DNA of 64,000 bases, taken from the UHGV virus genome UHGV-0141727, one strand, 5' to 3'. This document shows, in pieces, positions 2,843 through 42,115 of this stretch. The notes under the pieces are model-generated. The model saw nothing but the letters and a program-made list of their open reading frames with translations. It was not told the origin of the DNA and did not search any database. Every line of letters begins with the position of its first letter. Position 1 is the stretch's first letter. The stretch is from a virus. A program made the translations under genes and the position numbers.

Positions 2843-3802
2843 TCATCCCCGAAAGCCCTCCGGAATTGACCAGTCTTCCCGGTCAAATTCAGACCGATAG
2901 CCACGCTGTTTCATCTGGTCAAATGCTTCATTGATGGTTGCACATCCCTGGGAACCAGAATAATCCATAGAGAAATCCAGGGCGCTGGATCGTTTGGGCT
3001 TATTCACCGTGGTAGCACTACGTATCCATGCAAATTTTTTTGCCAGTTTTTCAGCGGTACGATACAGAGCCTGCCGTTTTGCGTACCCCTCGTCTGAACG
3101 ACGCTTTGCAGCTCTCGCTTTTGCCGCCGCCAAACAGTGGTTGGTATGTTCTTCCCTGATTACTGTTTTTTTATCCAGCAAGCCATTATCCGCTTGAGAA
3201 CTATCTGCTGGTGAAGCCTTTGGCTGAACCGCGCATGATCTTTCTCTTCTTTTGGCTATAGAGTGACTCTTATTTTCTATTGGCTGTTCATTTTGAACAT
3301 GGGGGGACTTGTTCAATTTGAACAGGGGGTGCCCAGTTTCAAAAAAATAACGAACCTTTGAAATCAACTGCTTAACCAGTTTTGTGGCGTTGGCAAATTT
3401 GATGCCCTGCTTACTCCCTATCTCCATTGCTACATGAATGAAGTGGAGAAATTGTGTTGTAAACCGGTACACGTTACACACCTGAGCATTGTTATTCGCT
3501 ACCTGATGCTGCTTAACAAGCATTCCGCACTTCGTCGCTTCGGTAAATGCCCGGCGCACAGTAGAAATACTGCGTCCTGTAATCTCGGACATATCAGCAT
3601 ATGAGCGACGGATCATGTATTCATCGGTAGCTCCTGCCAGGTTGGCGAACTCGGCAATAATGGCGCTATGTGAAGGGGAAAGAAAACCGCTATGACGAGC
3701 AAAAAAACTCAACTGATGACCTTTGATTTTTTTGTGGTATTCAGTGTTGTTTTTATACTCAGAAGTGTTGAAAGTTACTGGAACTGAATTTAAAATACTC
3801 AT
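2843..3802 (-). CDS. winged-helix DNA-binding protein of unknown role (possible RepL-like initiator or regulator)
   Basis: 319 aa. HTH-like SYADMSEITGRSISTVRRAFTEATKCGMLV with a basic C-terminal half. Lies between two operator sites; own putative promoter with ATAGATTT direct repeats at 3810-3860. Confidence 0.4.
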   Translation of the reverse strand: MSILNSVPVTFNTSEYKNNTEYHKKIKGHQLSFFARHSGFLSPSHSAIIAEFANLAGATDEYMIRRSYADMSEITGRSISTVRRAFTEATKCGMLVKQHQVANNNAQVCNVYRFTTQFLHFIHVAMEIGSKQGIKFANATKLVKQLISKVRYFFETGHPLFKLNKSPHVQNEQPIENKSHSIAKRRERSCAVQPKASPADSSQADNGLLDKKTVIREEHTNHCLAAAKARAAKRRSDEGYAKRQALYRTAEKLAKKFAWIRSATTVNKPKRSSALDFSMDYSGSQGCATINEAFDQMKQRGYRSEFDREDWSIPEGFRG

Positions 3803-3863
3803 CAGATAGTTCCGTGAAAAATCTATCTACCGTATAAATCTATGCCAGTGGATTTATACACCC

Positions 3864-3896
3864 AAAAGCCGCTACTCAGCGGCTTTTGCTTTTTTG
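3864..3896. terminator. bidirectional rho-independent terminator
   Basis: AAAAGCCGCU-ACUC-AGCGGCUUUU hairpin. Tail is UUUUGCUUUUUU on plus and a U4 tail on minus. Confidence 0.55.
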
Positions 3897-3970
3897 GCAG
3901 TCGCTACCGGAGCAGTGACCGCGATCCTACTCGATCACGTGCCGTCGGATCAACAGTGTATAAAAACACA

Positions 3971-4004
3971 CTGTGTTAGAAAATTAAGCTAGCTTTTAGC
4001 TCAC
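3971..4004. promoter_or_regulatory. operator site (strong left half, degenerate right half)
   Basis: CTGTGTTAGAAAAT at 3971-3984 is identical to the left arm at 42127-42140. The right half CTTTTAGCTCAC matches the consensus at 7/12. Confidence 0.45.
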
Positions 4005-4999
4005 ATCCTCTTAGACACAAAGATCAGCGGAGTCACCGTCTTGTTCTCTTTCACCGGTATTTCTTGTTGTTTATTGGCTGATATTGGCAGACCATAAGTG
4101 GCATTAGCCCCTAGGGATTCAAGCATCGCTGCGACAATGCGTGCATCATCCTCTGACTGCATACGGCAGAGCGCCCGGCGCTGTTCTGCGCTGATAAAAA
4201 CAGGCATTTCCTGGATAGCATCACGCAAAATACGGCGGCATTTCTTCGCGTTCTCCCCCTGGCTTTCCATCATCGCGGCCTGGTCGCGTAGTTTGTCGCG
4301 AAGCTGCATATTTTCCACTTCAAGATGTATCAGTTCCGATTCCAGAGCTTCACGCTGTGCTGATTCAATCATTGCTTGTTGACTTTGCATTTGTGCAAAG
4401 TGATGAACAATATCTGTAGCCTGATTGTCAGTGAAACCTTGATCCATCAGCGACGTGTGCATAACAGCTTCACGCTCTTCAACGGACTCCATCATCGGTA
4501 TCTGTTTATCGAGGCTGATATAGTTCGGCACGGTAACGTAATCAAATCCATGAAAGGAGTTTACTATTGACACGAAAGAATCAGGTCCAATAGTCGCCCA
4601 TGACCAACCGCCAGCATTTGAGTTGATCAATCCTTGAACAATATGCCCTGTATATGAATCAAGAATTTCTTGGGTGTGCGTAATGACACCATTATCGTCA
4701 ATAGAAATATCAACTGTTCTGTTAGATGGCACATTTTCCAGAAGAAGAGGCTTACCATCCATCATAACAACGCAAACCTCTGGCAAATCTAGTGATTTAG
4801 TTTTGTTGTAATACATCGAGCGGCGACCATGACCGTAATATCCAAATAGCTCACCAAGAGCCATGCGCTCTTTAACTAGCGGTGATGTTATGGTTTTTCG
4901 CACAGCCTCAATAATGTATTTTCGGTTGTTCTGCGGTGTATGTTTGCGGATTTTCTCTACCAGGGAGAAGCGATCCGTAACGGTATTCAGTGATTGCAT
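4001..4999 (-). CDS. putative prohead protease/scaffold (P1 Pro position)
   Basis: 332 aa immediately downstream of the portal gene, with a C-terminal coiled-coil-like region (ELIHLEVENMQLRDKLRDQ). Call rests on position. Confidence 0.45.
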   Translation of the reverse strand: MQSLNTVTDRFSLVEKIRKHTPQNNRKYIIEAVRKTITSPLVKERMALGELFGYYGHGRRSMYYNKTKSLDLPEVCVVMMDGKPLLLENVPSNRTVDISIDDNGVITHTQEILDSYTGHIVQGLINSNAGGWSWATIGPDSFVSIVNSFHGFDYVTVPNYISLDKQIPMMESVEEREAVMHTSLMDQGFTDNQATDIVHHFAQMQSQQAMIESAQREALESELIHLEVENMQLRDKLRDQAAMMESQGENAKKCRRILRDAIQEMPVFISAEQRRALCRMQSEDDARIVAAMLESLGANATYGLPISANKQQEIPVKENKTVTPLIFVSKRM

Positions 5000-13776: not shown

Positions 13777-16700
13777 TTAATACCCATAAGCAACATACTG
13801 TGCATATATTTTATCAGTGGAGCTACTTTTTACTGTAAAACCAGTGGCAGAGTTGTTGTATGTATAAAGAATTGCATTAACAGCATTCCCGCTATGAGGT
13901 GAAATCACAACTGCCGCACACGACTCAGGAAAAGAAGTCGGAAATTTAACTACGCTTCCTGGAGTAACAGCCGCTATAGTCCCCCACTGCATCATCACCT
14001 TAGTTGATGTATCCTTATGCCATCCATGAATGTTGGCATATGCAGTATTTTTAGCCTGATATTTCGTGTTGAAATTACTATAGTTACCAGGGGTAATCTG
14101 ACCAGCGGCAGATAAATTCCCCATAACCCTTACATGACCATCAGCACGTCCTAATTCTACGCGACCATCACCGCCATCTATCTTTAATGGAGTGTAAACG
14201 ACATCACCATTAACATTTTGCCCAGTGGTTGATATCTGGAAACTATATCCAGTATTAGTTATTAGGAATCCATAGTTATTATTATAAGTTAGGCGTATAG
14301 CATTTTGGCTGCTGGATATAATTTCACCGGTAACAGTACCACCTGTTGTTGGTAACGCACCAACATGACTTGCCGTTAATGTGATATCTGCAGAACCATC
14401 AAAAGCCACGCCACTTATTTTTCTGGCAGTTTTTAACTTTGTAGCTGTAGCTGCATTGCCACTTGTATTTTGATTCCCGGCAATATTAACGCCCGGAAGA
14501 TTGATGTTTGCTGAACCATCAAACGAAACCCCGCCTATTGTGCGTGCTGTTTGCAGTTTTGTGGCAGTTGCAGCATTGCCGGTAGTGCTCTGATTGCCTG
14601 TTTTATTCACGCCCGGCAGGTCGATGTTTGCGGTGCCATTAAATGAAACACCACCAATAGTTCTTGCCGTTTGTAATTTCGTTGCAGACGCCGCGTTTCC
14701 GGTTGTGTTCTGGTTGCCCGTGGTATTTACACCAGGGATGGAATCTTTCGATGTGTAGACCTGCGCCCACTCAGACCAACTAGCTGTATCAGTATCTCGT
14801 CGCGAACGTACATGTACAGGCGCATGAGCACCACTTGTACCGCTCCAACCTATGAACAACTCGCCTTCACCAGCGGCTGTTGCGCCCTTAAGATGAAGCA
14901 CATTCCCGTAAGCAGAAGGATAGCCGTTGTTGTACGCCTCATACATCTGCAATCCAGTGGTAGCACCTTGCGTTGTACTGGTGAGCGCAGTAACACGCCC
15001 TCTGGACGTAATTGTTGGTATCGAAATGTTCGCAGAACCATCAAACTTAACACCGTTGATTGTGCGGGCTGTTTGCAGTTTTGTAGCGGTTGCCGCATTA
15101 CCTGTTGTGTTCTGGTTACCGGCAATGTTCACACCCGGCAGGTTGATATTGGCGCTGCCATCAAATGCCACCCCGCCGATTGTGCGGGCCGTCTGAAGTT
15201 TCGTTGCGGTTGCCGCATTACCGGTTGTGCTCTGATTACCCGTTTTATTCACGCCAGGCAGGTCGATATTAGCACTGCCATCAAATGACACTCCACCGAT
15301 CGTTCGAGCTGTCTTGAGCTTTGTGGCAGTATCGGCGTTCCCGGTCAGCGTACCAGTAATCCCACCGCCAACTTTTACGCCGTTACCGATGGACACCAAC
15401 CCAGTTCTTAAGTTTATAGAAAATGGTCTTAATGGCCCGATGTCACCATTTTCACCCTCCCCTTCATTTGTCGGGATAAGATGAAGATATTCCTCGGATC
15501 TCCTGAAGATAAGGCCAAAGGCCTGGTTAAATATTCGAAGGGCATTTATTGTGCCAATTTTTAGCTGCCCCCCCATTGTGTCGCCAGAACGCTGAACGGC
15601 GTTACCAGCTTGAGAAGCAATATCCGTTAAGCCAAGATCTTCAGGGGTCAGAGTAATATCTGCCGAACCGTCAAATGCCACACCGTTAATCTTTCTGGCT
15701 GTTTTTAATTTCGTCGCAGTATCGGCGTTCCCGGTCAGCGTACCAGTGATCCCCGCGCTGAAAGTCTGGCGTGCACTCCATGTGTTAGCCGTGCTCAACA
15801 GGGGGATTTTTTCACCGCTGGTACCGAGTTCTCTTAAACCAAGGTATTGGATAACAGCCAGAGTGCTTGTTTTAGCCAGAATATCGCGACCGACTGACGT
15901 TAAATCAGTCTGGGCTACAGTGTCTGTTCCGGTAAAGTACGGTAATTTATTTGCCCCCGTCGCCAGGCCAGCGAGCGCGGTTAAGGTTGCGTCGAGAGGC
16001 TGCTTACCTGCAAGGGCATTTGTCATTGTAGTCGCAAAGTTCGGGTCATTGCCCAGTGCTGCGGCAAGCTCATTCAGGGTATCAAGAGCTTCTGGTGATG
16101 AGCCGACCAATGCAGAAATAGCGGCACGAACATAAGCGGTTGTTGCAATCTGAGTGTTGTTCGTACCTTGTGACGCCGTAGGAGCTGTTGGAACCCCCGT
16201 AAATGCCGGGCTTAATAACGGCGCTTTAAGAGCTAACGCATCATTAATCGTCTGGCTAAACTGGGGATCATTGTTTATTGCATCTGCAATTTTTTTCAGC
16301 GTATCCAACGCTGAAGGAGAACCATCAATAAGGGCGGTTATTGCGGCCTGAACAAAGGCAGTGTTTGCGATTTGTGTACTGTTTGTACCTTGTTCCGGAG
16401 TTGGAGATTTAGGTATACCAATAAACTCCGGGCTATCAACCGGAGCTTTTAGTTTGTTTAACGTGCTGATAGCAAGAGGTGTTGCGGCTTTATATTCTTC
16501 GTCACTATCCAAAGCACTGGAAAACTCAACACCAACAGCACGATTAGCACGATATTCAGTGCTAATCATATCTGCGGTAACGGCTTGAGCATTGTCAGGC
16601 ACGATCACGCGGCATAGCTCAATCTGGTTAGATGCTATTTCCTCATCAACGAGAGCAATAATTCTCGCTGCGCTAATATCCGATGAACTATCTACCTGGC

Positions 16701-25372: not shown

Positions 25373-26257
25373 ATGGTAGATGACAAAAAAGGCTTTCTGA
25401 ACGTTGAGGAAATATCAGGGAATACCGGAGAAATCCACAGCTTAAAGCCTAACAATAATAGCACTATTCAGCCGATAGCTTTGTTGCGGCTTGGGGTGTT
25501 TGTTCCCACATTGAAATCTACCAGTGTTGCTTTACGTCGCAAGAACGCCGGTTTAACTAACTCCACTGATGCGACAGAAGAACTGTCCAGCCTGAAGATT
25601 GTAGAGCAGGAAGGGTATCAGGGTATTGAGATTCATGGGCCACGTCTGGATATGGATACTGATTTTAAGGTGTGGATAGGCATTACATCTGCATTGTTTG
25701 ACTATAAACCAGATAATGATGGTGTGATCACCCTGACATTCTCTGAATTTGTGGATCGTTGCGGTTATCCAAGGAAGCGGCTGTCCAAGGCTTTTCGCAA
25801 GAGCATTGGCGACTCTCTAACGCGTATTCAGCAGACGTTGCTGAAGTTCAACTTGCCCACCAGCAAAGAACATGTTCGTTATATCCAGATGAATTTATTG
25901 GCATTTAGTGAACTTGATACTGAAAATGACATTATAAGAATCCAACCGCAGAAGCAGTTGTCTGAGTTGTATTACGTTGACTATAAGCGAATATTGAAGC
26001 TCAAAATGCTCGATAAACTTGGCAGGAAAGAGACAGCCAAGGTGCTTTATACGTTTTTCGAAGCGTTACCTTCAAACCCTGCGCCAGTGAGTATTGAGCG
26101 CCTTCGCGCCAGATTGAACCTCAAATCATCGGTTAGCGTTCAGAACAGTGTGATTCGTAAAGCCATGAAAGACTTGGAAGCTGTTGAATATCTTAAATTT
26201 TCAGAGATAAAGAATGGTCGGAAAATAGGTTTCCAGATCCATAAACGAAATCCATAA
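25373..26257 (+). CDS. repA: plasmid replication initiator RepA (P1 RepA family)
   Basis: 294 aa. TIQPIALLRLGVFVP and GPRLDMDTDFKVWIGI match recalled P1 RepA motifs. Flanked by iterons; AAGGAA SD. Confidence 0.9.
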   Translation: MVDDKKGFLNVEEISGNTGEIHSLKPNNNSTIQPIALLRLGVFVPTLKSTSVALRRKNAGLTNSTDATEELSSLKIVEQEGYQGIEIHGPRLDMDTDFKVWIGITSALFDYKPDNDGVITLTFSEFVDRCGYPRKRLSKAFRKSIGDSLTRIQQTLLKFNLPTSKEHVRYIQMNLLAFSELDTENDIIRIQPQKQLSELYYVDYKRILKLKMLDKLGRKETAKVLYTFFEALPSNPAPVSIERLRARLNLKSSVSVQNSVIRKAMKDLEAVEYLKFSEIKNGRKIGFQIHKRNP

Positions 26258-26486
26258 CATTGACTGTGTGCGATTCCAAGCGTTGACTATACGCGACAAA
26301 CATTGACGCTGGCGGATTTAGTTATTAACTTTTTCACATGATCAATGGATAAACCAGCTATTTCATTGAGTATTTGTCGCTTATAGTCAATCTTTCCTCA
26401 TTTCTTGTCGTGTGTAGTCAATGTTTTGTGATCGGGATCGAGTACAGTCAACATTAGTTGTAAGCCATTTCGCCTATAGTCAACAT
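26257..26486. repeat. incA-like iteron array downstream of repA (3 direct + 4 inverted)
   Basis: Direct copies at 26257, 26280 and 26300. Inverted copies (..GTCAATGT/GTCAACAT) at 26376-26393, 26407-26424, 26437-26454 and 26469-26486. Confidence 0.8.
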
Positions 26487-26502
26487 TTCTCCATCAGCAG
26501 TC

Positions 26503-26796
26503 TTAAGGGCAATTTCTACACCTCTCTGTAGGTGTAGGATTTGCCCTTAAAGATGGGAGATTGAGGGCAATTCTTACACCATTAGTGAGTTGGTTGGAGC
26601 TTTAACGGCTAACATCATTTGTAATTTATTGATTAATAAGTAATGTGTAAAAATCACCCTCAGATAGCATCGTATGTTATAGCTATTTTTATAGCACACC
26701 TGTTAAGTGTTTTTTGAATGTAACTCATTGATTTTGTTGTGATGTGTAAAAAATGCCATCATTGACGTAAACAGCAGGTGTAGAAATTGCCCTCAA
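26503..26796. repeat. second, unrelated 19-20 bp repeat family (6 copies) around an AT-rich core
   Basis: Consensus TT(A/G)AGGGCAATTTCTACACC. Copies at 26503-26522 (+), 26531-26550 (-), 26561-26580 (+), 26644-26662 (-), 26743-26761 (-) and 26777-26796 (-). The first two form a 20-8-20 palindrome. Confidence 0.7.
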
Positions 26797-35629: not shown

Positions 35630-36424
35630 TTATGGTTCCTTTTTAGTGTTGCTTTGGAGCGCATCGATTACACCTTGTGGCATGATCAAACTGATTGCCG
35701 GACTCATTACTTCATCGCCCAGTAGAGAACCGGTTAACGTAATAGCTACAGCATTTTCCAGTCCCTGTTTGGCTTTTCCGGTAGAGTCCTTAACTTGCTG
35801 TGCAAGTGTTGAGAGACTACTGCTCGTGTTGTTTATTGCATTTATTTGTTCTGTTGCTGCTTCCACAGCGTCTTTTAGTGCTTTGATCTCTTCTTCTGTT
35901 AGTGCTGGTTGCTGTGTTGTTCCGGTGGAACTTCCGTTGCCTGAAGCCTCCTCGCTTGACGCCTGAACTTTTGCATTTATAGCGGTCATAGCTGAAGTGA
36001 TTGGCACCAGTTCAAATGCTGCCAACGCGTCAATAAGCGATTGCGGATGCAGGGTATCTCCCATAACTGTTACGAGAGCAAATTCTGGCGCAGGAGATAA
36101 CTCATTACCTTTGACGTAACATTCCCAGCCAATTTTCATCTGAAGTAATTCAGTTGGCGAAGTATACGGAGACAGCGAGTCGGCTAAATGGGTTGCTTCT
36201 GCACTGACAGTTTTCAGTTGTTCTGAAAAGACAGAAAGCTGATTGACCCATGAAACCACCGACGCCGGGTATGCTTTATCCTTCAGGATAAGAGCCTGGA
36301 TATTCTCTTCCAGAGAACTGGCATTGGATGACGCTGTTTTACTTAGCGTGATAGATGCAGGCGTAGTTGTGCCTGATGCATTTAGAATTTTGAATGCGTT
36401 AACTTCAGCGATTGAATCAAGCAT
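35630..36424 (-). CDS. hypothetical protein downstream of PAAR gene
   Basis: 264 aa, Ser/Thr/Ala-rich. Its start overlaps the PAAR stop. Confidence 0.35.
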   Translation of the reverse strand: MLDSIAEVNAFKILNASGTTTPASITLSKTASSNASSLEENIQALILKDKAYPASVVSWVNQLSVFSEQLKTVSAEATHLADSLSPYTSPTELLQMKIGWECYVKGNELSPAPEFALVTVMGDTLHPQSLIDALAAFELVPITSAMTAINAKVQASSEEASGNGSSTGTTQQPALTEEEIKALKDAVEAATEQINAINNTSSSLSTLAQQVKDSTGKAKQGLENAVAITLTGSLLGDEVMSPAISLIMPQGVIDALQSNTKKEP

Positions 36425-36708
36425 TATGACACCTGAAAAATTGCCTCACCATTAGCGATGACTGAGCCACAAGAAAGGGGATCTCCCACACAAACAACTC
36501 CTTTCCCGCCTATTACAAACCATGAGCGCGTCGATACGGCTGATCCGGGGTGCGCGCTATTTCCGTCTGTATGGCTGGGGAACGCTCCCCCATCTACAAC
36601 CACTGGCTTTCCATTTACGGTAAACCAGGAAACTGTTTCTGCTACAGGTCGCGGAGGGAATCCTCCATGACCAGAACAAACTGTGTCACTGGTCGCAATT
36701 GCACTCAT
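36424..36708 (-). CDS. PAAR-like spike-tip protein
   Basis: 94 aa. CSGHGGFPPR..., HTDGNSAHPG and GDPLSCGS resemble PAAR repeat motifs. Strong AGGAGG SD. Confidence 0.7.
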   Translation of the reverse strand: MSAIATSDTVCSGHGGFPPRPVAETVSWFTVNGKPVVVDGGAFPSHTDGNSAHPGSAVSTRSWFVIGGKGVVCVGDPLSCGSVIANGEAIFQVS

Positions 36709-36788
36709 CTAACACCTCCTTTTTCTTAAATCTTCTCCACTTTGTGATTTTCACTCTTCAGATTTCTTACTTCTCATATTTGTCTCTG

Positions 36789-36953
36789 ATTTGTCTCAAA
36801 AGGGTATCATTGGTACATCATGTATCATCTAAGTCTCTTTTGTGTCTCTTTTGTGTCTCTAGTTTGATGCTTTTTACGCTATCTAACTTCTGGTCTTATT
36901 TTGTTTTCTCATATAAAATTCAATTCTTTCTCAAATGTGTCTCAGAAGTGGAG
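36789..36953 (+). repeat. parC: parC-like centromere/promoter iterons (11-bp phasing)
   Basis: (T)TTGTGTCTC-type repeats with the GTCTC core at 36792, 36803, 36843, 36854, 36865 and 36949, in sets spaced exactly 11 bp. AT-rich and upstream of parM. Confidence 0.6.
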
Positions 36954-36957
36954 CAAT

Positions 36958-37917
36958 ATGATGCGCATTTTTATCGACGATGGTTCTACCAATATCAAAA
37001 TGCTGTGGGAACAAGACGGGGAAACTCGAACCCATATCTGTCCGAACAGTTTTAAACGTGGATGGTCCGCCACATTTGGCGCAGGAAAGCCGTTTAACTA
37101 CATCATTGATGACGAAAAATATTCATATGACTTGATCTCGCCGGATGTGCTGCCGACGAATAACGTTGAATGGCAATACAGCCCGCTTAATGTGCTTGCT
37201 GTTCATCATGCCCTGCTTACAAGTGGCATTGAGCCTCAAGAAGTGGAAATAGTTGTCACGTTGCCACTGGCAGAGTTTTATGACGACGACGCACAATACA
37301 ACATGAAAAATATTGAGCGGAAAAAGGCCAGCCTGATGCGACCAGTCACCCTTAACAAAGGTCAGGTTTTTACTATCAAAAAAGTGACTGTGCGCCCGGA
37401 GTCAATACCCGCAGGGATCGGTCTGTGCGACAGCCTTGTGCCAGCGCATTCTGTGCTTATTGTTGATCTTGGTGGGACTACTCTGGATGTGTCGATGGTC
37501 GCCGGGCAAATGACCGCCGTTTCTCGCGTATTTGGCGATTCTAATCTCGGCGTTTCGCTGGTAACTAAAGAGGTCAGACAGGCACTTGCAAAAGCGAATA
37601 CCGAAACCTCTAATTATAATGTCGATCAATTAATCATTAATCGTGATGATGAGGATTATTTGACCGACAATATTAACGATCCGTCTGCTATTGATGATGT
37701 TAAGAAAGCCATTTCGTCAAGCATAGAACGACTCCGTACACGCGTACTGGATGTGATCAGTGATTTCAAAGGATACACGCATGTTATGGTCATTGGTGGC
37801 GGCGCGCCGCTTGTTGCTGATGCTATCCGTGAGCAGGTAAACATTCGTGACGATAGGTTTTTCGTTGCTGATGATCCACAACTTGCTCTTGTCTATGGTC
37901 TAAAATCTATCGGTTGA
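36958..37917 (+). CDS. parM: ParM actin-like plasmid segregation ATPase
   Basis: ORF 36901..37917; start MMRIFIDDGSTNIKM at 36958 after GGAG. Collinear similarity to R1 ParM (FIDDGSTNIK, ESIPAG, DLGGTTLD, YTHVMVIGGGA). Confidence 0.9.
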   Translation: MMRIFIDDGSTNIKMLWEQDGETRTHICPNSFKRGWSATFGAGKPFNYIIDDEKYSYDLISPDVLPTNNVEWQYSPLNVLAVHHALLTSGIEPQEVEIVVTLPLAEFYDDDAQYNMKNIERKKASLMRPVTLNKGQVFTIKKVTVRPESIPAGIGLCDSLVPAHSVLIVDLGGTTLDVSMVAGQMTAVSRVFGDSNLGVSLVTKEVRQALAKANTETSNYNVDQLIINRDDEDYLTDNINDPSAIDDVKKAISSSIERLRTRVLDVISDFKGYTHVMVIGGGAPLVADAIREQVNIRDDRFFVADDPQLALVYGLKSIG

Positions 37918-37927
37918 TGAGGTTGCC

Positions 37928-38293
37928 ATGTCTCAGGAACGTCGAAAAGTATTGTTTTATCTTCGTCCTGGTCTTAACGCCAGTGAGCAATATGCTGATG
38001 CAAAACTTGAGGGCCATCCATTAAGAGATCGCAATGATATGGCGCGCACAGCGATGCTTGCAGGTATCGCTCTTGGCGAGGTTGATAGCAGATTACCTCC
38101 CATGTTGGCATCGCTTTTATCCGGTGATAATAGCCCTGAAGTGATCAGAAAAATGCTGGTTTCATTTCTTGAAATTTCGCCTGAAGTTCGGGAAGCCTCT
38201 GAAGGAAACACCTCTGTCTCAGAGGATGTAAAAAAACCAGGCGTTCCGAAAAGCCGCTCTGCACAGAATTTGGCAAACTCACTCCCTGATTAA
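37928..38293 (+). CDS. parR: ParR-like centromere-binding adaptor
   Basis: 121 aa directly after parM. N-terminal RRKVLFYLRPG...R..MARTAMLAGIAL resembles the R1 ParR RHH region. Confidence 0.65.
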   Translation: MSQERRKVLFYLRPGLNASEQYADAKLEGHPLRDRNDMARTAMLAGIALGEVDSRLPPMLASLLSGDNSPEVIRKMLVSFLEISPEVREASEGNTSVSEDVKKPGVPKSRSAQNLANSLPD

Positions 38294-38310
38294 CCAATCT
38301 ACATCTTCAA

Positions 38311-38337
38311 AGGCTGCAATTTGCAGCCTTTTTTATA
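38311..38337 (+). terminator. rho-independent terminator after parR
   Basis: GGCUGCA-AUU-UGCAGCC followed by UUUUUUAU. Confidence 0.8.
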
Positions 38338-38339
38338 CC

Positions 38340-38570
38340 GTTATGGTTCTGGTTTGGTGCTCTTTTAGTACCAAAACGGTGTTGTTATGGTGCTGCTTTG
38401 TATCTGGTTCCACTTTGGGGCTGATTTCGTGTTAAACAGGATGCAACAGAGGGCAAATTTAGAGTGTTTAGTGTTATACTTTTGCAAAGCATAGTGACTC
38501 CACTATAGAGCCAAAACCGCATCAATAAGGCTTCTGTTTGGAACCAGTTTGATACCAAAATAACACCGAG
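38340..38570. repeat. degenerate 14-bp repeats upstream of parA (centromere/operator-like)
   Basis: GT(A/T)CC-N5-(C/T)GGTG-type motifs, e.g. GTACCAAAACGGTG at 38368-38381 and variants at 38346, 38405 and 38540-38567. Confidence 0.5.
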
Positions 38571-38578
38571 GAACGGAT

Positions 38579-39220
38579 ATGATTATATTGGTAGTCAGCC
38601 AAAAAGGTGGCTGTGGAAAATCAACCACAAGCGTAAACATCTGTGCGGAGCTTGCCCGCGAAAATAAGGATGTAGTGTTACTAGATGCAGACAAGCAAGG
38701 AACAGCTGCCCGCTGGGCAGCTGACCGTAACACGGCAGAGGTTTCTCCTGTAATTCATTGTGTCCAGAAGTTTGGTAATATTCGAGAAACACTTCTCGAT
38801 CTGGATAAGCGTTATGAATTTGTAGTTGTTGATACAGCCGGGCGCGATAGCAAAGAGATGCGTACAGGCATAACCGCTGCAGATATTGTGTTGGTCCCAT
38901 TCAGACCATCTCAACCAGATTTAGACACGCTGGCACACTTTGTTGAAGTGTTTGAAGAGGCTTTGGACCTGATGCCTAATCCTAGCATTAAGGCGTTCGC
39001 AGTCTTAACAATGGCCCCATCCAATCCGGTTGTGAATGAAACCAATGAGGCCAAAGAGTACCTAGCTGAATATCCGCAACTGAAGTTGCTGAAAACCATC
39101 ATTCGTGATCGTAAGGTTTACCGCGATTGCATGGCTGAAGGGAAGGGCGTTGTTGAGATGGACAACGGGAAAGCTAAAGGTGAAATCCAGATGTTGGTTA
39201 AGGAGTTATTAAGTGATTAA
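38579..39220 (+). CDS. parA: type Ib ParA/ParF-like Walker partition ATPase
   Basis: 213 aa. Deviant Walker A VVSQKGGCGKST. No N-terminal HTH extension. GAGGAA SD. Confidence 0.85.
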   Translation: MIILVVSQKGGCGKSTTSVNICAELARENKDVVLLDADKQGTAARWAADRNTAEVSPVIHCVQKFGNIRETLLDLDKRYEFVVVDTAGRDSKEMRTGITAADIVLVPFRPSQPDLDTLAHFVEVFEEALDLMPNPSIKAFAVLTMAPSNPVVNETNEAKEYLAEYPQLKLLKTIIRDRKVYRDCMAEGKGVVEMDNGKAKGEIQMLVKELLSD

Positions 39221-39500
39221 GCCTCGTAAATCGGTAAAAGCCCCCGAAGTAAAAGACCCCGATCTTGAACGCCGAATTGAGGATTTTGCCAGTAAGGCTG
39301 ATTTGGTGCCGGGTGAGCAACCAGAAGACAACAAAGTGCTCGATAAGGACGCCCCACGTGATTTTAAATCCATTCGTGTTGGCTTCAATGAATACGAGTA
39401 CCAGGTACTTGATGCGTTAAGCAAAAAGCATAATCGCAGCAAATTGAATATGATCCGCCATGCTATTCTCATGCTTGCAGAGTCTGAGGATACAAAATGA
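39213..39500 (+). CDS. ParG/ParB-like ribbon-helix-helix centromere-binding protein
   Basis: 95 aa, GTG start after AAGGAG, overlapping the parA end. C-terminal IRVGFNEYEYQVLDALSKKHNRSKLNMIRHAILMLAE is RHH-like. Confidence 0.6.
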   Translation: MIKPRKSVKAPEVKDPDLERRIEDFASKADLVPGEQPEDNKVLDKDAPRDFKSIRVGFNEYEYQVLDALSKKHNRSKLNMIRHAILMLAESEDTK

Positions 39501-39504
39501 CGCC

Positions 39505-39600
39505 GGAATAACACCGTTTTGGTTCCATGTGTTATTTTGAAGCTATTTTGATGCCTTTTTAGTACCAGAATGGTGTTATTAGTGTACCGTAACGGTGCTT
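39505..39600. repeat. same 14-bp repeat family downstream of the parA/RHH cassette
   Basis: CACCGTTTTGGTTC at 39512-39525 (inverted), GTACCAGAATGGTG at 39562-39575 and GTACCGTAACGGTG at 39584-39597. Confidence 0.5.
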
Positions 39601-39613
39601 GTTTGATGTTATA

Positions 39614-39637
39614 AAAGCCCCATATGGGGCTTTTCTT
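39614..39637. terminator. bidirectional terminator between the par cassette and dam
   Basis: AAAGCCCC-AUAU-GGGGCUUU with U-rich tails on both strands. Confidence 0.75.
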
Positions 39638-40478
39638 AATTAAGCGTGGCTATAATGTCGTTAGCTATCATTCGCGTTGATGCTTTACAGGATACAGAGC
39701 GACGGGATGGCATAGGATACACCTTGAAGCCATTGCCAACGTAAAGTTCGCGAATGTTAGGCGCTCCACTGTTTGTTATCACAATTTTCGCCCCGCGTCT
39801 GTGAGCATCTACCAGCAGCGACACCAGCCGTTGTTGATCTTCAAACCTAAAGCTATGCCCTGAGTAATTTGTAAATCCGGTAGTGTCGGGCAATGGTTCA
39901 TAGGGGGGATCGCAGAAAATCACATCATCATTCCCGGCAGCCTCAATTACACCAGCAAAATCGCCGGACACAAATTCCGAATACTTTGAAATATCGTCAG
40001 CCAGGAACGCCTCCATTTCCGCGAGAGGGAAGTGGGGTGATTTCTGCTTTCCATATCCGACGTTGAACTCTCCTTTACGGTTATAGCGAGTGACGCCATT
40101 AAAACAATGACGATTGAGATACAGGAACGCCGCTGCATGGTGAAGGGAATCATAAGCACCATTGTTGAATGCATTGCGAACATTCAAAAATGCATCAGCA
40201 GAGTTGTAATCCTGAAAAAAACGATATGCCAGTGTGATAAGAGAATGCCCTTCACGCTGCAATGTCTGATAGAAGTTAATCAGGTCATTATTGATATCGT
40301 TCAGCAGGTTGCTTTTAAATCCGGCATTAGTGAAAACAGCGCCACCTCCAACGAAAGGTTCTATCAACCGTTTTCCGTGGGGCAGGTGTTCGAAGATAAT
40401 GGGCAGTGCAGAAAATTTGCCGCCGACCCACTTAAAGACTGGGCGATCAAATTCGTCCTCCGAGCGAATACGTCGCAT
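39636..40478 (-). CDS. dam: DNA adenine (N6) methyltransferase, Dam family
   Basis: ORF 39636..40670. Conserved core starts at FKWVGGK. Motifs EPFVGGGAVF and DPPYEP. Start at M65 (40478) avoids a 125-nt overlap with the upstream gene. Confidence 0.85.
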   Translation of the reverse strand: MRRIRSEDEFDRPVFKWVGGKFSALPIIFEHLPHGKRLIEPFVGGGAVFTNAGFKSNLLNDINNDLINFYQTLQREGHSLITLAYRFFQDYNSADAFLNVRNAFNNGAYDSLHHAAAFLYLNRHCFNGVTRYNRKGEFNVGYGKQKSPHFPLAEMEAFLADDISKYSEFVSGDFAGVIEAAGNDDVIFCDPPYEPLPDTTGFTNYSGHSFRFEDQQRLVSLLVDAHRRGAKIVITNSGAPNIRELYVGNGFKVYPMPSRRSVSCKASTRMIANDIIATLN

Positions 40479-40545
40479 ATGGCTGATAGTGGCTTCCGCC
40501 GCAGGACGATGATTGTCGCTATAAGAAATAAATTTAGCACCAATA

Positions 40546-41193
40546 TCAGCCACGGATTCCCTCCTTATTTGCTTCAAATACAGCTCTTGCAAAACCGTAA
40601 GGTGTCGCGCTACGAAAATTCGCTCTTTCAGGTCCTGGCGGTGCCTTGTGTATTCGGTTATCTGGATCACCTAACGACTCGTCGATTCGCGGAGTTGGCA
40701 TGATGAATCCTTGTCCGCTCCACAGGCATGTTTTTTTGGTGTAATTGTCTTCCTTGCAATATGCAGTGAAGTGATAAGGATGGAATATGTGGTCAGGTTT
40801 ACGCCAGAATGTCGATATTTGGCTGACCGGGTTTTCAATCATGTACGGGCAACCAATCATCTTTGCAATGTCGTAACACTGCCAGACAACCTGCATTGCT
40901 TTGAACTGGAAAACCGGATCTTTTTTCGCTTTATCTGCGAACCAGCGTGCGCCAGATACAGCCAGGTCAGTACATGGAGGGAAACCGGCTAAAAATACAA
41001 CTCTGTGCAAATTTTTCCGAAGGAAATTGTAGACCTCATCACTGTCAATAATTGCGCTGATACGTGTGAGTACAGCACCTGACTCCATCAATTGGCTGCC
41101 GGACTCCTGGTGTTGCGGATCGACAATGACTGCATCAATGCCGTGTTCCAGCCAGGGGGAAACCATATTCCCTGTATAATCACAAAGACTCAC
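40546..41193 (-). CDS. DNA cytosine-5 methyltransferase-like protein (small, orphan)
   Basis: ORF 40546..41352 overlaps rdgC, so a probable start at GTG 41193 (VSLCDYTG = motif I-like) is preferred. GFPPCTDLAVSG (PC motif), IENP (ENV-like) and RSATPYGFA. Confidence 0.65.
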   Translation of the reverse strand: MSLCDYTGNMVSPWLEHGIDAVIVDPQHQESGSQLMESGAVLTRISAIIDSDEVYNFLRKNLHRVVFLAGFPPCTDLAVSGARWFADKAKKDPVFQFKAMQVVWQCYDIAKMIGCPYMIENPVSQISTFWRKPDHIFHPYHFTAYCKEDNYTKKTCLWSGQGFIMPTPRIDESLGDPDNRIHKAPPGPERANFRSATPYGFARAVFEANKEGIRG

Positions 41194-41209
41194 CGCCAGC
41201 GGTCGGTTA

Positions 41210-42115
41210 TTAATGCTCTGCTTCACCGCCAATGGCCTCCACCAGCGAGCTAAACATCGCGGATAATTCGCTTGTGAACAGAATGAAGTCAGCATCAAAT
41301 CGCTGGGCAACATCTTCACGGTCGATGTCATCGTTCTGGTCATAGAGATCATCGCAAAACGTCAGTGCTTTGATGCTCATGTCATCGTTTAACCTGAAGG
41401 TCGCGCGGTCCTGCCAGTTGATTGCAACTGTTGTTGCAACTTTTCCGGCTTCAATATGAGTCATTATTTCCTCTGACTGTAGGTCTACTTTCTTGCAACG
41501 AACTGCGCCGCCGTCATCGAACAGAGATTTCAATATGGCTTCTTCGCCTGCTTTAAAGCCTTGAGGAAATGTTGACTTGAACCATTCGGTCATAGTCATT
41601 TCGAGCGGTTCTATCGGCGTGAATGGAATCACCGGAAGGCTGCCAAGTGATTTACGTAAGAGCGCCAGCATTTCTTCTGCTTTTCTGGCGCTGGAAGCTT
41701 CTACGAAGACCAGATAGTTGTCGCGATCAATAAGGATTCGCGACAATGATTTGCGAGTGAATGCGCGAGGCAACAAAGAGTGGAGAACTTCATCCTTCAG
41801 GGTGTTTTTTTCCGACTTCTTCAGCTTACGGGATTGCTCATTTTCGAGCTTTTCCACTTTTTTCTGCACTTCCTCCTTAATGACATGAGAGGGCAGGAGC
41901 TTAATTTCTCGCTGTTGCTGGAGAAGTAGAAAACCGTGGTATTCATGGATCAGGTTGTCAGCCAGAACCGGCACCCATCCGACTTTTGCCATTTCTTGTG
42001 ATGCGCATGGAGTGAATGTGAATTGGCTTAAGGCATCACTAACGGTGGTTGAGTCCAGTTTAATTTCGCGGGCAAGGCGATAGACGTATATGTTTTTAAA
42101 TGCGACCAATCTCAT
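41210..42115 (-). CDS. rdgC: recombination-associated protein RdgC
   Basis: 301 aa, collinear with E. coli RdgC (FKNxxVYRL, FTPCxSQxMAKxGWVP, LKDEVLHSLLPRAF, LALLRKSLGSLPV). Confidence 0.9.
   Translation of the reverse strand: MRLVAFKNIYVYRLAREIKLDSTTVSDALSQFTFTPCASQEMAKVGWVPVLADNLIHEYHGFLLLQQQREIKLLPSHVIKEEVQKKVEKLENEQSRKLKKSEKNTLKDEVLHSLLPRAFTRKSLSRILIDRDNYLVFVEASSARKAEEMLALLRKSLGSLPVIPFTPIEPLEMTMTEWFKSTFPQGFKAGEEAILKSLFDDGGAVRCKKVDLQSEEIMTHIEAGKVATTVAINWQDRATFRLNDDMSIKALTFCDDLYDQNDDIDREDVAQRFDADFILFTSELSAMFSSLVEAIGGEAEH

What the first reader, a model, noticed from the sequence alone, without database searches (positions are those of the whole stretch)
36789..39600. Two different partition systems in tandem, each with its own centromere-like repeats
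The first system is a type II ParM/ParR cassette. ParM is clearly R1-like. It is preceded by 11-bp-phased TTGTGTCTC iterons, with the GTCTC core at 36792, 36803, 36843, 36854, 36865 and 36949.

After a terminator comes the second system, a type Ib ParA (213 aa, no HTH) with a 95-aa RHH protein. It is flanked on both sides by a different repeat, GT(A/T)CCnnAA(C/T)GGTG, at 38346-38567 and 39512-39597.

P1 itself uses a type Ia ParAB. A double par locus combining type II and type Ib is known from pB171 as I recall, but I am not aware of it in a P1-like phage-plasmid.
Basis: partly seen in the sequence, partly recalled or inferred. Interest (0 to 1): 0.6.

Follow-up and report, generated by a model that had tools for sequence, protein, structure and literature searches.

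The report
Tandem double partition locus, D6-like phage-plasmid
This stretch carries two complete plasmid-segregation cassettes side by side, an actin-type ParM/ParR and a small ParA/ParB type, each with its own 11-bp-spaced binding-site arrays; it is real, but it is the standard, already annotated partition region of phage D6-like plasmid prophages and the same pairing of system types as the pB171 double par locus.

Summary
parM (36958-37917; 54% identical to R1 ParM) and parR (37928-38293) follow nine to ten 11-bp-phased TCTC/GTCTC iterons. After a hairpin terminator come parA (38579-39220; 213 aa, Walker A at residues 9-16, no N-terminal extension) and a 95-aa protein (39213-39500). I show that protein to be ribbon-helix-helix. 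Degenerate GGTG-core repeats in 11-bp register flank this cassette on both sides. An unbiased lag-11 autocorrelation scan of all 64 kb ranks exactly these four intergenic stretches first.

The element is a phage D6-like (distant P1 relative) phage-plasmid. The same four genes in the same order are annotated in the D6 GenBank record. They occur on plasmids in 102 of 5,426 complete E. coli genomes.

Unlike pB171, the cassettes lie in tandem, each with its own upstream repeat region, rather than divergent around a shared parC1.

One extra finding: the locus is mosaic. par2 is nearly identical to D6 (dS 0.014), whereas par1 is a different ParR/iteron allele (ParR 62.5% identical; parM dS about 2.9).

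Verdict: ordinary, a new member of a known kind. No function has been tested experimentally.

The parts
36765..36950 (+). parC-like iteron region of par1. Three clusters of 11-bp-phased iterons have TCTC cores at 36772/36783/36794, 36834/36845/36856 and 36907/36929/36940; the consensus is about TTGTGTCTC. A candidate -10 (TAAAAT, 36915-36920) lies inside the proximal cluster.
   Evidence: this is the highest lag-11 autocorrelation in the window, 0.64. The cluster layout (3 iterons, 40-nt step, 3 iterons) is kept in D6 although the sequence has diverged. The promoter is inferred from a -10 conserved between the two alleles; the consensus scan found no strong match.
36958..37917 (+). parM, actin-like segregation ATPase (319 aa; relatives are annotated from the second ATG at 36961)
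   Evidence: Pfam StbA_N 2e-69 and ParM_N 9e-56. R1 ParM PDB 4a62/1mwk, E = 1.7e-110, 54.1% identity. dN/dS 0.013 against D6.
37928..38293 (+). parR, centromere-binding adaptor of par1 (121 aa), with an N-terminal ribbon-helix-helix domain and a conserved C-terminal tail
   Evidence: Pfam Plasmid_stab_B 3e-14. pB171 ParR/StbB PDB 2jd3, E = 3e-7. PHROG 8671 'partition protein'. Two alleles differ mainly in residues 6-35 and the linker, while the last ~14 residues are conserved.
38309..38338 (+). Intrinsic terminator between the two cassettes (AAAGGCTGCAA/TTGCAGCCTTT followed by a T-run)
   Evidence: inverted repeat I8; -14.5 kcal/mol. Conserved in D6, L004, L009 and L012.
38334..38410 (+). Distal upstream repeat array of par2: 7 units in 11-bp register (GGTGYTnnTTT and GTACCnnAAY types)
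38482..38509 (+). Candidate par2 promoter, TTGCAA-16 nt-TATAGA, lying between the distal and proximal arrays (inferred)
   Evidence: Read directly from the sequence. TTGCCA-17-TATAGA is kept in D6 inside an otherwise diverged segment. It falls below the thresholds of the consensus scan.
38535..38567 (-). Proximal upstream array of par2: 3 units in inverted orientation (reverse complement reads GGTGTTATTTT GGTATCAAACT GGTTCCAAACA), just before the parA ribosome-binding site
   Evidence: (I6, I9).
38579..39220 (+). parA, small deviant-Walker-A partition ATPase (213 aa, KGGCGKST at residues 9-16, no N-terminal HTH extension)
   Evidence: Pfam AAA_31, CbiA and MipZ. NCBIfam ParA_partition 162.8 bits, below its cut-off of 180. 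TP228 ParF PDB 4dzz, 1.5e-18, aligned end to end. dN/dS 0.025-0.056.
39213..39500 (+). parB-like centromere-binding protein (95 aa; GTG start overlaps the parA stop by 8 nt). Basic, flexible N-terminus and a C-terminal ribbon-helix-helix domain at about residues 52-92.
   Evidence: No direct Pfam, NCBIfam or PDB sequence hit. 124 small relatives were found; of 82 of these that were scanned, members hit the RHH families NikA-like (23), RHH_1 (18), DUF6290 (12), RHH_7 (6) and TraY (5). AF2 model pLDDT 83, and 94-98 over residues 51-90. Top fold matches are CopA, CopG, ParG, Arc and NikA. In other plasmids the gene always overlaps or abuts a ParA-type gene.
39506..39615 (+). Downstream repeat array of par2: inverted units at 39506-39527, then 8 direct units in 11-bp register at 39528-39615
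   Evidence: (35-nt copy 83% identical to the upstream array).
39613..39634 (.). Bidirectional hairpin terminator (AAAAGCCCCAT/ATGGGGCTTTT) between parB and the convergent Dam methylase gene
   Evidence: I10; -15.2 kcal/mol.

Best explanation
This is the plasmid-maintenance partition region of a phage D6-like phage-plasmid. It consists of two autonomous segregation cassettes in tandem.

par1 is a type II ParMRC system. ParR dimers (ribbon-helix-helix) are inferred to bind cooperatively to the 11-bp-phased (T/G)TGTCTC iterons upstream of parM. This would form the partition complex and probably also repress the par1 promoter. ParM-ATP filaments captured by the conserved ParR C-terminal tail would push sister copies apart.

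par2 is a type Ib ParABS system. The 95-aa ribbon-helix-helix protein is inferred to bind the GGTG-core, 11-bp-phased arrays upstream of parA (partition site plus operator) and downstream of parB (partition site only). Its basic N-terminal tail would stimulate the nucleoid-bound ParA ATPase, spacing copies over the nucleoid.

Shown here: gene identities, the fold of the adaptor, the repeat arrays and their statistics, conservation and purifying selection, and the mosaic history. Inferred: DNA binding, promoters, autoregulation and stabilisation.
For: Identities of ParM, ParR and ParA. RHH nature of the 95-aa protein.

Repeats:
- The iterons are far above chance.
- The 11-bp register is visible directly.
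- The four par intergenic stretches are the top four lag-11 signals in 64 kb. The same stretches rank among the top lag-11 signals in the independent relatives L009 and L012.

Co-variation in par1. The window-type ParR allele goes with GTCTC iterons. The D6-type allele goes with (A/T)TCTCA iterons. The cluster layout is kept, ParM stays 94% identical and the ParR C-terminal tail is conserved.

Independent support for par2 sites. The region downstream of parB in D6 is not homologous to that in the window, yet it is again enriched in GGTGC/GCACC: 5 observed against 0.45 expected.

Selection. dN/dS is 0.013 for parM and 0.025-0.056 for parA.

Context:
- The nearest complete relative, pEC361_3, has no other partition genes; its RepB replicon lies about 11 kb away.
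- The locus is on plasmids only, one copy each, in 102 of 5,426 complete E. coli genomes.
- A ParA/ParB pair of this family (69% and 48% identical) sits without ParMR next to it in a Serratia conjugative plasmid, so the cassette occurs independently of par1.
- Arrays on both sides of the operon are the documented layout of the type Ib systems of pB171, pSM19035 and pESBL (PMC7602700; IncK/I example).
Against: - No experiment bears on binding or stabilisation.
- The par2 repeat is degenerate. Its core (GGTGY) was defined after inspection, so the individual enrichment P-values are post hoc.
- ParA scores below the NCBIfam ParA_partition cut-off.
- The 95-aa protein has no significant direct match to any characterised ParB, including the pB171 type. 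The fold-search E-values are weak because the domain is small.
- No strong sigma-70 consensus promoter was found for either cassette.
- One more distant relative (L013) has parMR only, so par2 is not indispensable to this kind of element.
Confidence: 0.85

Rival explanations
1. Only one cassette does the partitioning. The other is redundant baggage left by recombination, or works only in certain hosts.
For: - L013, a more distant relative, carries parMR alone.
- The locus is mosaic, so cassettes are gained and exchanged.
- In the dual-par plasmid SCP1 only one of the two systems matters under laboratory conditions (PMC13245405).
Against: - Both motor genes are under strong purifying selection (dN/dS 0.013 and 0.025-0.056).
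- All four ORFs and both repeat sets are intact in every relative whose locus sequence was examined here (D6, L004, L005, L006, L009, L012).
- All 32 plasmid records listed carry partition-gene annotations under the match.
Confidence: 0.1
2. The parA plus 95-aa pair is not a partition system. It would be a ParA-like ATPase with a ribbon-helix-helix transcription factor doing another job, and the flanking repeats would be operators only.
For: - The 95-aa protein has no significant sequence match to characterised ParB/ParG proteins.
- PHROGs files it under unknown function, with only a weak Arc-like repressor match.
- ParA is below the NCBIfam equivalog cut-off.
Against: - The downstream array (39506-39615) lies after the last gene, between parB and a bidirectional terminator, where there is nothing to regulate.
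- The up-and-down arrangement copies known type Ib centromeres.
- ParA is 43-45% identical over its full length to the ParAs of the pB171-type and IncI/K-type type Ib loci.
- The parA/parB gene overlap and synteny are kept across Serratia, Acinetobacter, Moraxella and Aeromonas plasmids.
Confidence: 0.04
3. The repeats are chance features of AT-rich intergenic DNA.
For: The individual par2 units are degenerate. For the short sub-arrays alone, lag-11 autocorrelation is not significant against the maximum over all lags (P = 0.07 and 0.28).
Against: - None of 20,000 shuffles reproduced the par1 iterons.
- The 14-mer occurs only in the par2 flanks.
- The four par intergenic stretches are the top four lag-11 signals in 64 kb.
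- The lags that stand out are 11, 22, 33 and 44.
- The same pattern recurs in diverged relatives.
Confidence: 0.01

Closest known systems
Partition region of Escherichia phage D6 (NC_050154 / MF356679, orf58-orf61) and D6-like plasmid prophages such as pYU39_89
   Same: - Same four genes in the same order and orientation, between the P1 upfC-like PAAR gene and the methylase/rdgC block.
- ParA is 100%, ParB 98% and ParM 94% identical.
- The terminator and the repeat-array layout are the same.
   Different: - The ParR/iteron allele differs: ParR is 62.5% identical, with GTCTC rather than (A/T)TCTCA iterons.
- The region downstream of parB is not homologous, and the D6 glnS gene is absent here.
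- The window-type allele is the minority: 18 of 102 E. coli genomes with the locus, and 7 of 122 plasmid records.
Double par locus of pB171 (par1 parMRC plus par2 parABC; Ebersbach and Gerdes 2001), represented here by the pB171-type locus of CP012495
   Same: - Combines a type II ParM/ParR system with a type Ib ParA plus small RHH ParB.
- The type Ib operon has repeat arrays both upstream and downstream.
- ParR matches the solved pB171 ParR structure 2jd3.
   Different: - In the pB171 type the two operons are divergent and share one ~230-bp intergenic region. Here they are in tandem, separated by a terminator, each with its own upstream region.
- The proteins are distant: ParM 42%, ParR 33%, ParA 43%, ParB not significant.
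- The repeat units differ: TCACA/TTATGA-type hexamers there against 11-bp-phased GGTG-core units here.
- The regulatory cross-talk described for pB171 (paper title only, in the reference lists; the text is not held) has no obvious structural basis here.
R1 parMRC (type II prototype)
   Same: - ParM is 54.1% identical over its full length.
- 11-bp iterons lie upstream of parM.
- A small ParR gene follows parM.
   Different: By my recollection of the R1 literature (not checked here), R1 parC has ten iterons in two blocks of five around the promoter. Here there are about nine in three blocks (3+3+3), with the candidate -10 in the proximal block. ParR could be compared only with pB171 ParR.
TP228 ParF/ParG and the IncI1 pESBL type Ib ParAB
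   Same: - ParA aligns end to end with ParF and is 44.5% identical to the IncK/I-type ParA.
- ParG is among the top fold matches of the 95-aa protein.
- The IncK/I-type locus examined here (L007) carries octamer arrays on both sides of the operon, as reported for pESBL.
   Different: - The ParB proteins are not detectably similar in sequence.
- The repeat unit differs: CTTGTTAT octamers in tandem there, against degenerate 11-bp-phased units here.
P1 parABS (type Ia)
   Same: Same biological role: it keeps a roughly unit-copy plasmid prophage stable (established knowledge).
   Different: From established knowledge, P1 uses a long ParA with an N-terminal HTH, an HTH ParB, and a parS site next to the replicon. 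Here no type Ia genes are annotated anywhere in the nearest complete relative, and the par locus lies about 11 kb from repB.

Membership tests
Type II ParMRC partition system | Actin-like ATPase ParM | tested here: met
   Pfam StbA_N and ParM_N; 54.1% identity and E = 1.7e-110 to R1 ParM structures.
Type II ParMRC partition system | Small ribbon-helix-helix adaptor ParR encoded directly downstream of parM | tested here: met
   Pfam Plasmid_stab_B 53 bits against a cut-off of 25; pB171 ParR PDB 2jd3, E = 3e-7 over residues 3-81. There is a 10-nt gap after the parM stop.
Type II ParMRC partition system | parC: an array of short direct repeats upstream of parM, overlapping the promoter | tested here: met
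   About nine 11-bp-phased iterons at 36765-36950, far above chance. They co-vary with the ParR allele. The overlap with the promoter is inferred only.
Type II ParMRC partition system | ParR binds parC, and the cassette stabilises a plasmid | not testable with these tools
   Needs EMSA or footprinting and plasmid-loss assays.
Type Ib ParABS partition system | Deviant Walker A ATPase of about 200 aa without the N-terminal HTH extension of type Ia | tested here: met
   213 aa, with KGGCGKST at residues 9-16. Residues 3-211 align to residues 4-202 of the 206-aa ParF.
Type Ib ParABS partition system | Small ribbon-helix-helix centromere-binding protein encoded downstream of parA | tested here: met
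   Family members hit RHH Pfam families. AF2 model has pLDDT 94-98 over residues 51-90. Fold matches are CopG, CopA, ParG, Arc and NikA, with target-normalised TM 0.67-0.82. The gene overlaps the parA stop. The monomer model shows the two helices but not the strand, which forms only in the dimer.
Type Ib ParABS partition system | Arrays of short repeats next to the operon, often both upstream and downstream | tested here: met
   Arrays at 38334-38410, 38535-38567 and 39506-39615. Recurrent in relatives.
NCBIfam NF041546 ParA_partition (equivalog) | Score at or above the curated cut-off of 180 bits | tested here: not met
   162.8 bits. It is a relative of that equivalog, not a member.
pB171-type double par locus | Type II and type Ib cassettes adjacent on one replicon | tested here: met
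pB171-type double par locus | Divergent operons sharing one central cis-acting region (parC1) | tested here: not met
   Here both operons are on the + strand, separated by a terminator, with separate upstream regions. The divergent arrangement is seen in CP012495.
pB171-type double par locus | Close homology of the four proteins | tested here: not met
   42%, 33% and 43% identity; ParB E = 0.036.
D6-like phage-plasmids | Same par locus in the same genomic context as phage D6 | tested here: met
   87.5% nucleotide identity over 76% of the region. Same flanking PAAR/upfC-like and rdgC/methylase genes. The relatives examined are typed rep_cluster_1704.
P1 type Ia parABS | Long HTH-ParA plus HTH-ParB next to the replicon | tested here: not met
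   No such genes are annotated in the complete nearest relative. ParA is short.

The most novel reading that the evidence does not exclude
The tandem double locus may let D6-like phage-plasmids change one centromere specificity without ever being unpartitioned. par1 exists as at least two ParR/iteron alleles that have been swapped by recombination at the cassette boundary (parM dS about 2.9 against parA dS 0.014 for the same pair of elements). par2 stays nearly constant. If the two par1 alleles are mutually compatible, allele replacement would be a route to escape partition incompatibility between related prophages meeting in one cell, with par2 acting as the safety net.
Probability: 0.25. Interest if true: 0.45.

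Novelty: new member of a known kind. Interest (0 to 1): 0.25.

Why it matters
It matters little for basic partition biology. Both cassette types and their combination are textbook, and this lineage's genes are already annotated.

It has modest value for three reasons:
- It gives the first explicit map I could find of the centromere-like arrays of the D6-type par locus.
- It shows that the uncharacterised 95-aa 'hypothetical protein' (PHROG 9169) is the ribbon-helix-helix adaptor of par2.
- It shows that a double par locus can be built in tandem with separate control regions, and that its two halves evolve and recombine as independent modules.

D6-like elements occur in about 2% of complete E. 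coli genomes and in invasive Salmonella. Knowing their stability determinants and incompatibility alleles is therefore useful for typing and curing.

Tried and rejected
- Fetching pB171 by accession NC_002142 failed; it is not in the collection. I used a pB171-type locus found by tblastn instead.
- The two key papers are not held: Gilcrease and Casjens 2018 and Ebersbach and Gerdes 2001. I therefore could not read what the D6 authors wrote beyond their GenBank notes, nor the published pB171 repeat sequences.
- Searching the supplements of the 2026 dual-par survey for D6-like accessions found nothing, so I cannot say whether these plasmids are among its 971.
- The promoter consensus scan gave fewer hits than shuffles and none convincing. 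The promoters named in the report are inferences.
- The first AF2 run, on a 9-sequence alignment, was poor (pLDDT 58). It was replaced by a run on 82 sequences.
- The word-indexed homologue search for the 95-aa protein found only close relatives. The exhaustive HMMER search was needed.
- The ACC-N5-GGT palindrome, considered as the par2 unit, fits the window (5 of the 15 sites in 64 kb) but not the D6 downstream array. I dropped it in favour of a GGTG-core 11-bp unit.
- L010 (pSa1423-90k) appears frameshifted and was not used.


Full report
WHAT IS THERE

The + strand between 36.7 and 39.65 kb carries four intact genes:
- parM, 36958-37917 (319 aa)
- parR, 37928-38293 (121 aa)
- parA, 38579-39220 (213 aa)
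- a 95-aa gene, 39213-39500, whose GTG start overlaps the parA stop by 8 nt

A PAAR-domain gene ends upstream on the opposite strand at 36708. A Dam-family methylase gene converges downstream and ends at 39636.

PROTEIN IDENTITIES

- ParM hits Pfam StbA_N (2e-69) and ParM_N (9e-56). It aligns end to end with R1 ParM structures (E = 1.7e-110, 54.1% identity). 'R1-like' is correct.
- ParR hits Pfam Plasmid_stab_B. Its only significant solved relative is the pB171 ParR/StbB N-terminal domain, 2jd3 (E = 3e-7).
- ParA has the deviant Walker A box KGGCGKST at residues 9-16. It aligns over its whole length with the 206-aa TP228 ParF (1.5e-18). It therefore has no room for a type Ia N-terminal HTH. 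It scores 162.8 bits on NCBIfam ParA_partition, below the cut-off of 180.
- The 95-aa protein has no direct Pfam, NCBIfam or PDB sequence match.

- An exhaustive HMMER search found 124 small relatives.
- Of 82 of them scanned, members hit the RHH families NikA-like (23), RHH_1 (18), DUF6290 (12), RHH_7 (6) and TraY (5).
- The family profile's best PDB sequence matches are CopG and HP0222, at weak E-values of about 0.2.
- An AF2 model on the 82-sequence alignment has pLDDT 94-98 over residues 51-90, with helices at 60-73 and 77-92 after an extended segment.
- Its fold matches are almost entirely RHH proteins: CopA, CopG, ParG, TacA, Arc and NikA, at 1-2 Å over about 42 residues.

The RHH assignment is supported. 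The conserved basic N-terminus (I2, K3, R5 invariant among close relatives) fits the ATPase-stimulating tail of type Ib adaptors. That last point is inference from the ParG literature.

THE REPEATS

par1. GTCTC occurs on the + strand at 36782, 36793, 36833, 36844, 36855 and 36939. About 0.1 copies are expected in that intergenic region. No other 170-nt stretch of the window has more than two. None of 20,000 shuffles matched the count or the three 11-bp spacings. With TCTC as the core there are three 11-bp-phased blocks: 36772/83/94, 36834/45/56 and 36907/29/40.

par2. A 35-nt stretch upstream (38353-38387) is 83% identical to one downstream (39547-39581). Laid out in rows of 11, the flanks resolve into degenerate GGTGYTnnTTT and GTACCnnAAY units:
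- seven units at 38334-38410
- three inverted units at 38535-38567
- eight units at 39528-39615, preceded by inverted units

An unbiased check settles the matter. Scanning the whole window for lag-11 autocorrelation, the top four 88-nt windows start at 36772, 38327, 38486 and 39498. In the par2 flanks the standout lags are 11, 22, 33 and 44.

Terminators. Hairpins followed by T-runs lie at 38309-38338 (-14.5 kcal/mol) and 39613-39634 (-15.2 kcal/mol). These bound the two cassettes.

WHERE IT COMES FROM

- The region matches Escherichia phage D6 at 87.5% over 76% of its length.
- It matches 122 plasmid records, 120 of them non-mobilizable and mostly about 90 kb. Seven match at full length with at least 96% identity.
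- In complete E. coli genomes it occurs in 102 of 5,426, always on a plasmid and once per genome.
- The nearest relative, pEC361_3 (99.5% identity), is a D6-like phage-plasmid with capsid, tail, portal, pacase, repL-like and c1-like genes. Its RepB replicon lies about 11 kb from this locus, and no other partition genes are annotated.
- The D6 GenBank record already annotates orf58 and orf59 as 'partition protein', orf60 as 'ParA-like partition protein' and orf61 as hypothetical, in this order.
- A 2019 paper lists cop, parA, stbB and parM as the partition genes of the D6-like plasmid pYU39_89 (PMC6799933).

EVIDENCE THAT BOTH CASSETTES ARE LIVE

- Between the window and D6, parM has dN/dS 0.013.
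- Between the window and two other relatives, parA has dN/dS 0.025-0.056.
- In par1 the adaptor and its sites co-vary. There are two ParR alleles, window-type and D6-type, 62.5% identical. They differ mainly in residues 6-35 (the DNA-binding end) and in the linker. The last ~14 residues are conserved and ParM stays 94% identical.
- The window-type allele goes with (T/G)TGTCTC iterons and the D6-type with (A/T)TCTCA(A). The cluster layout (three iterons, a 40-nt step, then the next block) is the same in both.
- In par2 the adaptor is 98% identical between the window and D6, but the DNA downstream of parB is not homologous. D6 has glnS there; the window has the methylase gene. Both downstream stretches are nevertheless enriched in GGTG(C/T): 3 observed against 0.4 expected in the window, and 5 against 0.45 in D6. 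That motif was chosen after inspection, so those P-values are indicative only.
- Relatives with ParB at 73-76% identity (L009, L012) again show the par flanks among their top lag-11 signals.
- A ParA/ParB pair of this family sits without ParMR next to it in a Serratia conjugative plasmid. Across Acinetobacter, Moraxella and Aeromonas plasmids the small gene is always beside a ParA-type gene.

MOSAIC HISTORY

- Against D6, nucleotide identity is about 80% through parM and about 55% through parR. It is low in both upstream regions and essentially 100% from about 38545 to 39490.
- For the same pair of elements, dS is about 2.9 for parM and 0.014 for parA.
- The E. marmotae relative L005 shows the reverse pattern: par1 identical, par2 about 90%.
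- The two cassettes are therefore exchanged as separate modules, with a breakpoint between them.
- A more distant relative, L013, has parMR only.

COMPARISON WITH pB171

A pB171-type locus (CP012495) has parR and parM on one strand and parA and parB on the other, around a single ~230-bp intergenic region. The window's proteins are 42%, 33% and 43% identical to its ParM, ParR and ParA. The ParBs are not significantly similar. The pB171-type repeats are short TCACA/TTATGA-like units, and the IncK/I type has CTTGTTAT octamers.

The window therefore shares the combination of system types and the up-and-down array layout. It does not share the divergent, shared-centromere architecture or close ancestry. 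A 2026 survey found 971 PLSDB plasmids combining a type I RHH-ParB system with a type II system (PMC13245405), so the combination itself is common.

MECHANISM (INFERRED)

- ParR dimers coat the phased iterons and couple them to growing ParM filaments.
- The RHH ParB coats the GGTG-core arrays on both sides of its operon and stimulates nucleoid-bound ParA.
- The upstream arrays probably double as operators. For par1, a conserved TAAAAT at 36915-36920 lies in the proximal iteron block. For par2, TTGCAA-16-TATAGA at 38482-38509 lies between the distal and proximal arrays. The consensus scan did not support either promoter strongly.
- The downstream par2 array has nothing to regulate, which argues for a centromere role.

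VERDICT

This is a real, well-formed tandem double partition locus. It is the standard par region of D6-like phage-plasmids, here as a minority par1 allele joined to a D6-identical par2. It is a new member of a known kind, of low to moderate interest.

Noticed in passing
window 36600-39700 compared with L001 (phage D6) and L005 (E. marmotae plasmid): There is a sharp recombination mosaic. par2 is about 100% identical to D6 at the nucleotide level, while parM is about 80% and parR about 55%. L005 shows the reverse pattern. For the same pair of elements, dS is about 2.9 for parM and 0.014 for parA.
   Followed up: yes
window 39501-39640 compared with L001 6575-8504: D6 and most D6-type relatives carry a glutaminyl-tRNA synthetase gene (glnS) between parB and the methylase genes. 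The window-type elements lack it, and parB is followed directly by the convergent Dam methylase gene.
   Followed up: partly
L013 (NZ_JBRBPZ010000006.1) 3527-4875: A more distant D6/P1-like E. coli plasmid (ParM 76%, ParR 49% identical) has parM-parR with TCTC-core 11-bp iterons but no par2 cassette. A large Dam-family methylase gene follows parR directly.
   Followed up: partly
window 36929-36945; L001 4026-4042: The promoter-proximal iteron pair TTCTCAAATGTGTCTCAG is identical in both ParR alleles. It contains one unit of each iteron type (TTCTCA and GTCTCA). It could be a common operator or simply 5'-UTR sequence.
   Followed up: no
window 39636-41352, minus strand: Two overlapping ORFs sit just downstream of the par locus. 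One (344 aa as listed, 39636-40670) hits the D12-class adenine methyltransferase family. The second (268 aa, 40546-41352) is not identified; it overlaps the first by about 125 nt. An rdgC-like gene follows. Start-codon choice differs from the RefSeq annotation of the relative, where the Dam gene is shorter.
   Followed up: no
window 36424-36708, minus strand: A 94-aa PAAR-motif protein (P1 upfC-like) is encoded immediately upstream of the par1 iterons and diverges from them. PAAR proteins are usually spike tips of contractile injection machines.
   Followed up: no
L010 (NZ_MK356557.1, pSa1423-90k): This D6-like Salmonella plasmid record matches ParM, ParR and ParA only in fragments across several frames and has almost no annotated genes in the region. 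This looks like an error-rich assembly rather than real decay.
   Followed up: partly
window about 25750-26505 (by offset from pEC361_3 15110-15865): The RepB-family replication initiator gene lies about 11 kb from the par locus, embedded among tail genes. In P1, by contrast, parAB abuts repA.
   Followed up: no
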